Positions 12,073 to 12,462 of a DNA stretch of 64,000 nt are shown here, piece by piece. The first letter of the stretch is position 1, and the number at the start of each line of letters is the position of its first letter. The stretch covers positions 7,995-71,994 of the forward strand of contig PCTL01000001.1 in the NCBI GenBank assembly GCA_002771515.1. The letters run 5' to 3'. Source of the stretch: Candidatus Lloydbacteria bacterium CG22_combo_CG10-13_8_21_14_all_47_15 (lineage in GTDB: Bacteria; Patescibacteriota; Minisyncoccia; Phycocordibacterales; 21-14-all-47-15). A program made the position numbers and the translations under genes. The notes under the pieces are model-generated. The model searched no databases. It saw only the letters and a program-made list of their open reading frames with translations, and was not told where the DNA came from.

Positions 12073-12248
12073 ACGACATTTTTGAATAGCGTTTCCATAG
12101 CTATTCAAAAGTGGCGTCTTTCGAAGTGAGGAGAGATTCGAAAGGCGGAGGCGGAGAAAAGTTTGCAAAACTTTTCAAACCGCCGAGCCAGGGTCGTGAG
12201 CGCGTATTTACAAGAAGCGAAGCGACTATGTAAATAGCGACTCCTGAC
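12073..12248. other. 176-bp structured spacer between the two att-like repeats (three hairpins)
   Basis: Three inverted repeats: TTTGAATAGC…GCTATTCAAA at about 12081-12110, CTTTCGAA…TTCGAAAG at about 12117-12143, and AAAAGTTT-gca-AAACTTTT flanked by GGCGG…CCGCC at about 12144-12184. No ORF. Confidence 0.5.
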
Positions 12249-12268
12249 CGAATCCCTCCCTCTCCGCA
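12249..12268 (+). repeat. direct repeat copy 2 (duplicate of tRNA-Ser 3' end), att-like
   Basis: Exact cgaatccctccctctccgca, 176 bp downstream of the tRNA. It abuts the HTH reading frame. Confidence 0.8.
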
Positions 12269-12285
12269 GAAAGAAACTTCGCGAT

Positions 12286-12462
12286 TTGAAAGGGTTGCGA
12301 GCAAAACAGGGGTTAACGCAGGATGATTTGGCGAAAAAAGCCGATATTAAATATTCCACACTTACTAAAATTGAAGGTGGTGTCGTTACGAAGCCAAGTG
12401 TCCAGACGATAGCAAAAATTGCCAAGGCATTAGGTATTCAGATGGAAGAGTTATTGAAATAA
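12286..12462 (+). CDS. XRE-family (Cro/CI-type) helix-turn-helix regulator, start uncertain or N-terminally truncated
   Basis: Open frame 12235-12462 translates …RRKKLRDLKGLRAKQGLTQDDLAKKADIKYSTLTKIEGGVVTKPSVQTIAKIAKALGIQMEELLK*, a clear HTH_3 domain. There is no in-frame ATG before the domain, and the frame runs through the att-like repeat. TTG 12286 is only a guess for the start. Confidence 0.55.
   Translation: MKGLRAKQGLTQDDLAKKADIKYSTLTKIEGGVVTKPSVQTIAKIAKALGIQMEELLK

What the first reader, a model, noticed from the sequence alone, without database searches (positions are those of the whole stretch)
12235..12462. HTH_XRE reading frame runs through the att-like repeat and has no start codon
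The open frame translates …LPLRRKKLRDLKGLRAKQGLTQDDLAKK…, so helix 1 of a Cro/CI HTH (KKLRDLK-GLTQ) begins exactly at the 3' edge of the duplicated tRNA segment. There is no in-frame ATG or GTG before the domain; only TTG codons at 12286 and 12295. This looks like a recombination junction that replaced the original 5' end of a repressor-like gene (a pseudogene or re-started gene). It supports the repeat being a true integration or excision scar.
Basis: seen in the sequence. Interest (0 to 1): 0.5.

Follow-up and report, generated by a model that had tools for sequence, protein, structure and literature searches.

The report
Deletion-truncated XRE repressor beside tRNA-Ser
A small repressor-type gene next to a serine tRNA lost its promoter and first ten codons in a short-repeat deletion that joined it to non-coding tRNA-flank DNA, an ordinary kind of gene decay or re-start that happens to sit inside a widespread, apparently undescribed mobile-island system of ultra-small (CPR) bacteria.

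Summary
The frame is open from 12238 to 12462. It has no in-frame ATG or GTG before the domain, only TTG at 12286 and 12295 and CTG at 12244. It runs through an exact 20-nt copy (12249-12268) of the 3' end of tRNA-Ser(GCT).

The gene belongs to a very conserved 65-aa XRE family of Patescibacteria. Canonical members start MATISQNIKR... and have a conserved promoter region of about 135 nt. In the window only codons 11/12 to 65 are native.

Bases 12269-12298 match the non-coding DNA that follows tRNA-Ser genes in relatives. They do not match XRE codons 1-9. The two homologies overlap at GGTTGC (12293-12298). This points to a microhomology deletion of at least 0.5 kb that removed the promoter and codons 1-10. 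The att crossover itself did not make this junction.

Intact relatives exist: L199/L200, and L040 with the same operon.

The repeat is real. It is part of a module seen in several other loci: tRNA, hairpin, inverted copy, conserved spacer, direct copy starting in the T-loop.

Whether a product is still made is unresolved. TTG 12286 would give all five helices with helix 1 shortened. This genome barely uses Shine-Dalgarno sites, and omega is about 0.05. Against that, the promoter is gone and similar 5' deletions elsewhere have produced dead copies. The finding is ordinary; the surrounding element family is the more interesting part.

The parts
11980..12071 (+). Intact tRNA-Ser(GCT) gene
   Evidence: ARAGORN. 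Rfam tRNA at 63.2 bits against a gathering score of 29.
12053..12072 (+). Direct repeat copy 1. It is the 3' part of the tRNA, from the T-loop CGAAT to the acceptor end.
   Evidence: Exact 20-mer, two copies in the window, 0 expected by chance.
12073..12117 (.). Palindromic hairpin directly after the tRNA (ACGACATTTTTGAATAGC ... GCTATTCAAAAGTGGCGT).
   Evidence: Inverted repeat I1, 18-nt arms, 89% complementary. Hairpins occupy the same position in L110 and L106 with different sequence. It forms the first stem of the RNA fold.
12126..12145 (-). Inverted, slightly degenerate copy of the tRNA 3' part (GTGAGGAGAGATTCGAAAGG).
   Evidence: I7 pairs 12051-12063 with 12130-12142 at 92%. Equivalent inverted copies in L110, L149 and L100/L120 match their own local tRNA-Ser. 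It pairs with copy 2 in the fold.
12146..12248 (.). Conserved spacer module ending in ...TGAC. It contains the motifs GAAGCGAAGCGA and CGAGCCAGGGTCGTGAG.
   Evidence: Alignment A3 with L110, L149, L106 and L120. The same architecture appears. No Rfam family. No Pfam hit for the 40-aa ORF at 12111-12233.
12249..12268 (+). Direct repeat copy 2, a displaced partial tRNA 3' end. It starts exactly at CGAAT of the T-loop.
   Evidence: The same boundary TGAC|CGAATC... is seen in L106, L110 and L149/L193.
12269..12298 (+). Former non-coding tRNA flank, now read as codons (R)KKLRDLKGL. It contains TTG 12286. It is homologous to the outer end of the inverted repeat that flanks the serine-recombinase cassette in relatives.
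   Evidence: 22/29 identical to the DNA after tRNA-Ser in L199, then 6/31 beyond. 20/25 identical to the left inverted-repeat arm next to the tRNA in L019/L053. In the XRE register only 9/27 for codons 1-9.
12293..12298 (+). Deletion junction. GGTTGC microhomology is shared by the flank (GAGAGGGTTGC|TCC in L199) and XRE codons 10-12 (AAGCGGTTGC|GAT in L199).
   Evidence: three-way comparison. Family DNA homology begins at 12289-12298 in about 100 pairwise hits.
12298..12462 (+). Native part of the XRE gene, canonical codons 12-65 plus the stop. TTG 12295 just upstream corresponds to native Leu11.
   Evidence: 75-84% DNA identity to most canonical family members (66-84% over all loci hit). 78-85% protein identity to the closest canonical proteins. 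dN about 0.05, dS 0.8-1.6. Pfam HTH_3.
12238..12462 (+). The whole open frame of the finding (74 codons). Candidate starts are CTG 12244, TTG 12286 and TTG 12295.
   Evidence: AlphaFold2 model: residues 1-11 have pLDDT below 50, helix 1 spans residues 17-23, and four more helices are intact.
12473..15797 (+). Cargo operon headed by the XRE gene. It has five ORFs of 307, 72, 99, 355 and 263 aa, mostly membrane or secreted proteins of unknown function.
   Evidence: Colinear with L040 (Niyogibacteria) over 12296-15827, with two ORFs at 88-90% aa identity. L040 and L010 carry an intact canonical XRE in front.
15870..15900 (+). Pseudo-tRNA 3'-end motif AGGTTCGCGCAAAGGATATAATTTTACCGCA, the probable right end of the island.
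   Evidence: The same motif borders the right inverted-repeat arm in many loci. It brackets the XRE cassette in inverted orientation in L053. Colinearity with L040 stops at 15827.

Best explanation
The frame is a 5'-truncated copy of a highly conserved 65-aa XRE/Cro-type regulator. In Patescibacteria this gene sits at the tRNA-proximal end of horizontally exchanged cargo islands.

In an ancestor arranged like L199/L200 or L019, the order was: tRNA-Ser 3' end, non-coding flank, optionally a large-serine-recombinase cassette, promoter/operator, XRE. An illegitimate deletion then occurred between two short direct repeats, GGTTGC in the flank about 25 nt after the tRNA end and GGTTGC in XRE codons 10-12. 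It removed at least 0.5 kb, or about 2 kb if the recombinase cassette was present. The lost DNA included the promoter/operator, the ATG and codons 1-10.

By chance the retained flank and the partial tRNA copy are in frame and free of stops. This gives the appearance of an HTH frame running through the att-like repeat.

The 20-nt repeat predates this event and is independent of it. It is the displaced tRNA 3' end of a recurrent recombination module whose boundary lies in the T-loop.

Shown: the homology breakpoints, the intact relatives and the recurrence of the module.

Inferred: the order of events, and that any remaining product would start at TTG 12286 (58 aa) or TTG 12295 (55 aa) from read-through transcription out of the tRNA-Ser gene. 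I put roughly even odds on the gene still making a working repressor with a shortened helix 1 versus being a young pseudogene.
For: Family and canonical form. 618 homologues were found, nearly all 65 or 68 aa with ATG starts. Most loci share the upstream DNA and the MATISQNIK codons.

Breakpoint. Family DNA homology starts at 12289-12298 in about 100 loci. Bases 12269-12298 match the post-tRNA flank of L199 at 22/29, then 6/31 beyond. They match the left inverted-repeat arm of L019/L053, and match XRE codons 1-9 at only 9/27. GGTTGC is shared at the junction.

Intact relatives. L199/L200 have tRNA-Ser, flank, about 470 nt, then an intact XRE. L040 and L010 have the same cargo operon behind an intact XRE and promoter. 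L037 has tRNA-Ser(GCT) 158 nt upstream of an intact XRE.

Similar independent 5' deletions at short repeats occur elsewhere: L090 (CGAGCAAAA), L009 (TGCGA), L087 (AAGAAAG), L091/92, L079, L072 and L075.

Not an assembly artefact. Only 6 nt are shared at the junction. The same product is present in both NCBI and JGI collections, on one and three contigs.

The repeat is real. The exact 20-mer has 0 expected by chance. The module tRNA, hairpin, inverted copy, spacer, TGAC|CGAAT direct copy, inverted-repeat arm recurs in L106, L110, L149/193 and L100/120. Islands in L039, L060 and L033 are bounded by tRNA-end repeats.
Against: The exact ancestor is not sampled. The closest relatives are only about 82% identical in DNA, so the size of the deletion (0.5 or 2 kb) and the order of events are inferred.

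A 6-nt microhomology is short and could be coincidental.

The 7-nt stretch GCGATTT differs from 111 of 123 left-arm copies of the L019 type. It is only partly matched by the L199-type flank (CTCATTT).

Function is untested. The strong purifying signature (omega about 0.05) cannot be dated relative to the deletion.
Confidence: 0.8

Rival explanations
1. Re-started gene. The truncated gene is still expressed from read-through transcription out of the tRNA-Ser gene or from an unrecognised promoter. Translation starts at TTG 12286 or 12295. The 55-58-aa protein folds and still regulates its targets. This is a functional sub-hypothesis compatible with the deletion origin.
For: TTG 12286 coincides with the start of the full Pfam HTH_3 profile and with the start of predicted helix 1. 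All five helices are present.

This genome almost never uses Shine-Dalgarno sites (1 of 45 genes), so the lack of one is uninformative. A crude first-start ORF call puts TTG at 8 of 45 genes, which shows only that TTG starts cannot be excluded.

There is no frameshift or stop in 165 nt. Omega is 0.04-0.07 against relatives at dS of at least 0.8. Only one conservative residue, V to I, is unique to the window.

The five cargo ORFs directly downstream are intact. The first starts 10 nt after the XRE stop, so transcription probably crosses the XRE frame.
Against: The canonical promoter/operator is deleted. No sigma-70-like promoter is found in 11850-12600.

Helix 1 is cut from 11 residues (4-14) to 7.

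Both TTG codons lie in a predicted 10-bp RNA stem within a very stable structure (-94.8 kcal/mol, z -5.5).

Other 5'-deleted copies in the family are clearly dead.
Confidence: 0.45
2. Young pseudogene. The deletion silenced the gene and no functional product is made. The open frame persists only because the event is recent.
For: The ATG, promoter and operator are lost. 5' deletions recur in this family, and several have stops or lack helices 1-2 (L072, L075, L079, L087). The start region is predicted to be buried in RNA structure.
Against: The downstream 54 codons show no degenerative change at all, despite about 18% DNA divergence from the nearest relative. The frame upstream stays open for 16 extra codons. 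The cargo operon is maintained.
Confidence: 0.4
3. The junction was made by the site-specific recombinase itself. In this reading, integration, excision or recombination with a pseudo-att site at the tRNA-derived att site truncated the gene.
For: The truncated gene lies 17-29 nt from an att-like repeat. In relatives a large serine recombinase sits between the tRNA and XRE. L079 and L090 also have truncated XRE genes close to tRNA ends.
Against: The homology break is at 12293-12298, not at the repeat edge 12268. Breakpoints in the left inverted-repeat arm of other loci that lost the recombinase are scattered from +16 to +75. Breakpoints in XRE range from codon 10 to codon 24, each with its own microhomology. 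No recombinase gene is left in the 64-kb window (tblastn).
Confidence: 0.08
4. A naturally short Cro-like gene. The protein natively begins at the Leu/TTG 12286 and nothing is missing.
For: The Pfam profile and predicted helix 1 start exactly there. JGI calls this 58-aa product.
Against: No other family member starts there. The window's own protein is the only 58-aa entry among the 120 best hits. P0120 (55 aa) is an internal-ATG call of a 68-aa gene. The codons before and including TTG 12286 are homologous to non-coding tRNA flank, not to XRE. Canonical helix 1 is four residues longer.
Confidence: 0.04
5. Assembly chimera between a tRNA-flank repeat and an XRE gene from another population.
For: XRE genes and the inverted repeats are repeated across co-occurring CPR genomes, and they often break contigs. 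36 XRE loci have less than 600 nt of upstream sequence.
Against: Only 6 nt are shared at the junction, far below assembler k-mers. The XRE part is about 82% identical to any other copy rather than identical. The same product is present in both NCBI and JGI collections.
Confidence: 0.03

Closest known systems
SinR / phage 434 Cro-type HTH_XRE DNA-binding domains (Pfam PF01381 HTH_3)
   Same: Five-helix Cro/CI fold. The closest solved relative is the SinR DNA-binding domain (E about 1e-6), with canonical Ile4 aligned to SinR Ile2. The Pfam match covers the full profile. The gene is small, stand-alone and heads an operon, as many autoregulated XRE repressors do (the last point is from general knowledge).
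   Different: The window copy lacks the first turn of helix 1 and its own ATG, promoter and operator. Its N-terminal residues are encoded by former tRNA-flank DNA. The DNA target and regulatory role are untested.
tRNA-gene-targeting genomic islands, in particular tycheposons of Prochlorococcus (bioRxiv 10.1101/2020.12.28.424599)
   Same: Cargo islands next to tRNA genes. Full tRNA plus displaced partial tRNA copies. Successive integrations and degenerate remnants. Variable cargo. A minority of tycheposons use large serine recombinases. Here, partial tRNA 3' ends bound islands in L039, L060 and L033, and the repeat boundary lies in the T-loop.
   Different: The hosts are Patescibacteria. The hallmark is a near-invariant XRE leader gene. 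The recombinase, when present, is a large serine recombinase inside 120-134-nt inverted repeats, rather than an inward-facing tyrosine integrase. Inverted as well as direct tRNA-end copies occur. The window island has no recombinase at all. Membership of the tycheposon lineage is not supported.
Large serine recombinase elements (phiC31-type integrases, TnpX/TndX transposons, SCCmec Ccr)
   Same: The relatives' cassette protein has Resolvase, Recombinase and Zn_ribbon_recom domains.
   Different: The gene is bracketed by 97-100% complementary inverted repeats of 120-134 nt. The outer ends of these repeats overlap the last bases of a tRNA on one side and a pseudo-tRNA end on the other. From memory, I know of no described large-serine-recombinase element with this layout. 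The window retains only about 30 nt of one arm.
Deletion between short direct repeats (slipped-strand or microhomology-mediated deletion) creating 5'-truncated genes
   Same: A junction at a 6-nt repeat, with loss of the intervening promoter and start codon. Several independent analogous events occur in the same gene family.
   Different: Nothing unusual, except that the fused non-coding DNA keeps the frame open and supplies a TTG exactly where the HTH domain profile begins.

Membership tests
HTH_XRE / Pfam HTH_3 (PF01381) | Significant full-length match to the domain profile | tested here: met
   E 1.9e-15, 57.1 bits against a cutoff of 23, profile positions 1-55 of 55, residues 17-72 of the 74-aa frame.
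HTH_XRE / Pfam HTH_3 (PF01381) | Five-helix Cro/CI fold | tested here: met
   AlphaFold2 model with helices at 17-23, 28-35, 39-46, 55-65 and 69-73, mean pLDDT 83.5. Helix 1 has 7 residues against 11 in the canonical protein.
HTH_XRE / Pfam HTH_3 (PF01381) | Sequence-specific DNA binding or repression | not testable with these tools
   Needs EMSA or a reporter assay.
Patescibacterial 65-aa XRE island-leader family (defined here) | At least about 75% identity over residues 12-65 | tested here: met
   78-85% identity to P0003-P0011. DNA identity 75-84% to most canonical members.
Patescibacterial 65-aa XRE island-leader family (defined here) | ATG start and conserved N-terminus M(A/S)TI(S/A)(Q/E)NIK(R/K) | tested here: not met
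   The window reads RRKKLRDLKG in that register. DNA identity is 9/27 for codons 1-9.
Patescibacterial 65-aa XRE island-leader family (defined here) | Conserved promoter/operator region of about 135 nt upstream (TTGAAA...TATGCT, ATACTAT x2) | tested here: not met
   Absent from the window. BLAST of the canonical upstream regions against the window gives only chance-level hits.
Patescibacterial 65-aa XRE island-leader family (defined here) | Position downstream of a tRNA gene and at the head of a variable cargo operon | tested here: met
   A same-strand tRNA lies within 600 nt in 11 of 42 distinct loci with at least 600 nt of upstream sequence. Among those with at least 2.2 kb upstream, 12 more have one at about 2 kb and 12 have none. 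15 of these 23 tRNAs are tRNA-Ser. In the window the tRNA-Ser end lies 214 nt before TTG 12286. The operon is colinear with L040.
tRNA-targeted integrative island (att repeats) | Intact tRNA plus a displaced direct copy of its 3' part | tested here: met
   20/20 nt repeat at 12053-12072 and 12249-12268. The same boundary at T-loop CGAAT appears in four or five other loci.
tRNA-targeted integrative island (att repeats) | Integrase or recombinase gene within the element | tested here: not met
   No Pfam recombinase among the island ORFs. No tblastn match of the relatives' serine recombinase anywhere in the window. Tyrosine integrases were not searched for outside the island.
tRNA-targeted integrative island (att repeats) | Excision or integration activity | not testable with these tools
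   Needs PCR or read evidence for circular forms or empty sites.
Pseudogene | Frameshift or premature stop in the homologous part | tested here: not met
   Codons 12-65 are intact and omega is about 0.05.
Pseudogene | Loss of native start codon and promoter | tested here: met

The most novel reading that the evidence does not exclude
The window's locus may be a decayed example of an undescribed, pan-Patescibacteria mobile system. Its proposed features are as follows. Cargo cassettes are led by a near-invariant 65-aa XRE gene. They are bracketed by tRNA-3'-end mimics in direct and inverted orientation, and they are parked next to tRNA genes, mostly tRNA-Ser. They would be moved or rearranged by a 1.65-kb large-serine-recombinase cassette enclosed in 120-134-nt perfect inverted repeats. 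Within that system, recurrent loss of the XRE promoter and 5' end, with the frame re-opened through former att/inverted-repeat DNA as here, could be a route to fixing or de-repressing cargo operons rather than mere decay.
Probability: 0.3. Interest if true: 0.65.

Novelty: new member of a known kind. Interest (0 to 1): 0.4.

Why it matters
For the finding itself, the main value is in annotation. The gene should be annotated as a 5'-truncated XRE with a non-ATG start at best. The existing 72-aa (CTG) and 58-aa (TTG) calls are both guesses. The locus is also a clean example of non-coding att-flank DNA being recruited into an open reading frame.

The context matters more. The same XRE gene and its promoter are shared at 75-98% protein identity across many CPR lineages. 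It sits next to tRNA genes with variable cargo and an unusual serine-recombinase cassette. This points to a major but undescribed route of gene exchange in these reduced, hard-to-culture bacteria. It also explains why their assemblies so often break at this gene.

Tried and rejected
1. Exact-sequence look-ups of the window's own products (P0002, P0001) found no contigs. No sister strain could be compared.

2. Adaptive-mutation idea, rejected. The 7-nt difference from the common left-arm sequence (CGAATCC to GCGATTT) turns PNP into RDL and creates TTG 12286. I considered whether this was adaptive change after the fusion. The L199/L200 flank already carries ...CATTTGAGAGGGTTGC, so most of the variant is inherited from a different flank subtype.

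3. Recombinase-made deletion, rejected. Breakpoints are scattered at +16 to +75 in the left inverted-repeat arm and at codons 10-24 in XRE. Each has its own microhomology.

4. Similarity of spacer 12092-12115 to the canonical XRE operator (20/24 with 2 gaps, z about 3.4). Too weak after multiple tests, so not used.

5. L069 has its XRE 5' segment inverted between the 9-nt inverted repeats CTTGTTTTG/CAAAACAAG. It is 1 of 77 loci, lies at a contig end, and the isolate name suggests a single-cell genome. I treat it as a probable amplification or assembly chimera, not a phase switch.

6. Short 55-aa homologues as evidence for natural short forms. P0120 is an internal-ATG gene call. P0031 lies on a 580-nt contig and was not checked.

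7. Rfam search of 11850-12550 found only the tRNA above threshold.

8. Sigma-70 promoter scan of 11850-12600 found nothing. The scan also misses the tRNA's likely extended -10 promoter, so it is weak evidence.

9. Literature searches found no description of this element.

Full report
**Observation**

TAG at 12235-12237 closes the frame. The frame is then open from 12238 to TAA at 12460-12462 and reads RLLTESLPLRRKKLRDLKGLRAKQGLTQDDLAKK.... There is no in-frame ATG or GTG before the domain. TTG occurs at 12286 and 12295, and CTG at 12244.

An intact tRNA-Ser(GCT) lies at 11980-12071. Its last 20 nt (12053-12072) recur exactly at 12249-12268. These are the only two copies in 64 kb, with none expected by chance.

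Pfam HTH_3 matches the frame over the complete profile, positions 1-55 of 55. The match starts at the TTG 12286 codon.

**What the gene is**

The translated frame hits 618 proteins. The top two are the window's own product, called as 72 aa by an NCBI record of a Candidatus Lloydbacteria MAG and as 58 aa by JGI. The rest form a very conserved family from many Patescibacteria (CPR) lineages. Almost all are 65 aa (MATISQNIKR(I/L/V)RAKQGLTQDD...) or 68 aa (MTSGKTISENIKK...).

At the DNA level most of the loci compared also share a region of about 135 nt upstream with a promoter-like TTGAAA...TATGCT and two ATACTAT boxes.

The identical 65-aa protein precedes many different downstream genes. In a scan of one genome per species, 80 loci were recovered from many candidate phyla. 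Many XRE genes lie within a few hundred bases of a contig end (36 loci). That is what a sequence shared between co-assembled genomes would produce.

**Association with tRNA genes**

Among distinct loci with enough upstream sequence, 11 have a same-strand tRNA within 600 nt. Another 12 have one about 2 kb upstream, and 12 have none. 15 of the 23 are tRNA-Ser.

Where the tRNA is 2 kb away, the gap holds a minus-strand large serine recombinase with Resolvase, Recombinase and Zn_ribbon_recom domains. It is enclosed by inverted repeats of 120-134 nt that are 97-100% complementary. The outer end of these repeats starts in the last bases of the tRNA.

A metagenome scan for that outer end gave 123 hits. 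They abut either real tRNA 3' ends or a pseudo-tRNA end, GGGTTCGCGCAAAGGTTAATACATCACC.

Islands bounded by tRNA-end direct repeats are seen in L039, L060 and L033.

**The junction in the window**

Family DNA homology begins at 12289-12298 in about 100 pairwise comparisons and ends just after the stop codon.

The stretch between the repeat and that point, 12269-12298, is not XRE sequence. In the XRE register it matches codons 1-9 at 9/27. It matches the DNA that follows tRNA-Ser in L199/L200 at 22/29, dropping to 6/31 beyond. It also matches the first 25 nt of the left inverted-repeat arm of L019/L053 at 20/25.

In L199 the flank reads ...GAGAGGGTTGC|TCCGCG and its own XRE reads ...AAGCGGTTGC|GATCAAAAC. 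The window reads ...GAAAGGGTTGC|GAGCAAAAC. The two homologies therefore overlap at GGTTGC (12293-12298). The simplest history is a deletion between these short direct repeats. It removed the promoter/operator, the ATG and codons 1-10. The size was about 0.5 kb in an L199-like ancestor, or about 2 kb if the recombinase cassette was present.

TTG 12286 and residues KKLRDLKG come from former non-coding flank. TTG 12295 corresponds to native Leu11.

**Intact relatives**

L199/L200 carry tRNA-Ser(GGA), the flank, about 470 nt, then an intact 65-aa gene. L037 has tRNA-Ser(GCT) 158 nt before an intact gene.

L040 (Niyogibacteria) is colinear with the window from 12296 to 15827 at 76-90% DNA identity. 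Two cargo proteins are 88-90% identical, and L040 has the canonical gene and promoter in front. L010 is similar.

Homologues therefore do not start at the window's Leu. The 55-aa entry I checked, P0120, is an internal-ATG call of a normal 68-aa gene 155 nt downstream of a tRNA-Ser.

**The repeat and the 176-nt spacer**

The arrangement in the window is:
- tRNA
- hairpin (12073-12117)
- inverted copy of the tRNA 3' part (about 12126-12145)
- conserved spacer ending in TGAC
- direct partial copy starting at T-loop CGAAT (12249)
- outer end of the inverted repeat

This arrangement recurs in L106, L110, L149/L193 and L100/L120. In each locus the copies match its own tRNA-Ser. The repeat is thus a genuine, structured recombination module rather than a chance duplication. 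The region folds far more stably than shuffled sequence (-94.8 kcal/mol, z -5.5). No Rfam family matches it.

A pseudo-tRNA-end motif at 15870-15900 probably marks the right end of the island. No recombinase is left in the window.

**Is the gene still working?**

For:
- A start at TTG 12286 gives all five helices.
- The genome uses Shine-Dalgarno sites in only 1 of 45 genes, so the lack of one is uninformative. TTG starts cannot be excluded.
- The native 54 codons have no lesion. Omega is 0.04-0.07 against relatives at dS of at least 0.8.
- The cargo ORFs are intact, and the first starts 10 nt after the XRE stop.

Against:
- The promoter and operator are gone, and no promoter-like site is found nearby.
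- Helix 1 is cut from 11 to 7 residues. The closest solved structure, SinR, begins four residues earlier.
- Both TTGs sit in a predicted stem.
- 5' deletions are common in this family, and several are plainly dead (L072, L075, L079, L087). L009 and L090 are open-frame cases like this one.

I judge re-started gene and young pseudogene about equally likely.

**Comparison and novelty**

The protein is an ordinary member of the Cro/CI-SinR HTH class. The truncation mechanism is ordinary.

The island system resembles tRNA-targeting genomic islands such as tycheposons in several ways: partial tRNAs, successive integrations, remnants, and occasional large serine recombinases. It differs in its invariant XRE leader, in having inverted as well as direct tRNA-end mimics, and in the recombinase cassette with long inverted repeats.

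I found no description of it. A search of a limited library cannot establish that it is absent from the literature.

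Noticed in passing
L019:7989-9672; L053:7986-9669; L060:8048-9695; L001:1983-3623; paired hits 1646 nt apart in 11 of the loci listed: A cassette of about 1.65 kb with one large serine recombinase gene. It is enclosed by 120-134-nt inverted repeats that are 97-100% complementary. The outer ends overlap the last bases of a tRNA on one side and a pseudo-tRNA end on the other. It is very abundant in groundwater-type metagenomes (123 matches to the repeat's outer end). The called recombinase ORF runs through the repeat into the tRNA on the opposite strand.
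   Followed up: partly
L003:337-361; L090:122-193: Loci that look like the same site without the recombinase carry a palindrome between the tRNA end and an inverted pseudo-tRNA end. Examples are CCGCCAGAATTC G GAATTCTGGCGG in L003 and a 73-nt palindrome in L090. L003 equals L060 minus the cassette. This could be the target site or an excision footprint.
   Followed up: partly
L069:1-93: The XRE promoter-proximal segment plus codons 1-11 is inverted relative to the rest of the gene. The junction fits recombination between the 9-nt inverted repeats CTTGTTTTG (upstream) and CAAAACAAG (codons 14-16). It is a single case at a contig end, so it is probably a chimera. An invertible switch is not excluded.
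   Followed up: partly
L053:9663-9690 (-) and 11891-11918 (+); window 15870-15900 (+): In L053 the XRE-plus-cargo cassette is bracketed by inverted copies of the 28-nt pseudo-tRNA-end motif. The window keeps only the right-hand copy.
   Followed up: partly
L003:253-342; L028:14601-14686; L141 (plus-oriented 6479-6566): ARAGORN predicts tRNA-Ser genes with anticodon ACT, which is unusual for bacteria, next to these islands. In L003 it lies beside a normal tRNA-Ser(GCT).
   Followed up: no
window 7032-7103 (-); also L031, L045, L193: tRNA-Ile with anticodon TAT is predicted, an uncommon way for bacteria to read AUA. The window also carries a tmRNA at 214-595 (-) with tag AKNAIKSPFMAMNGLAFARA.
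   Followed up: no
L060:1056-1131 and 1362: A tRNA-Asp is followed 230 nt downstream by an exact 20-nt copy of its 3' end. This is another closely spaced tRNA-end duplication like the one in the window.
   Followed up: no
window 13401-13616 and 13902-14966: Relative to the colinear operon of L040, the window has two extra ORFs, a 72-aa DUF2007 protein and a 355-aa protein with no Pfam match. Cargo therefore varies even between close versions of the island.
   Followed up: no
L079:8630-8837; L075:10001-10150: Truncated XRE remnants occur on contigs binned as Actinomycetes and Nitrospinota. In L079 the remnant is fused directly to a tRNA 3' end. This is either mis-binning of CPR contigs or transfer outside the CPR.
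   Followed up: no
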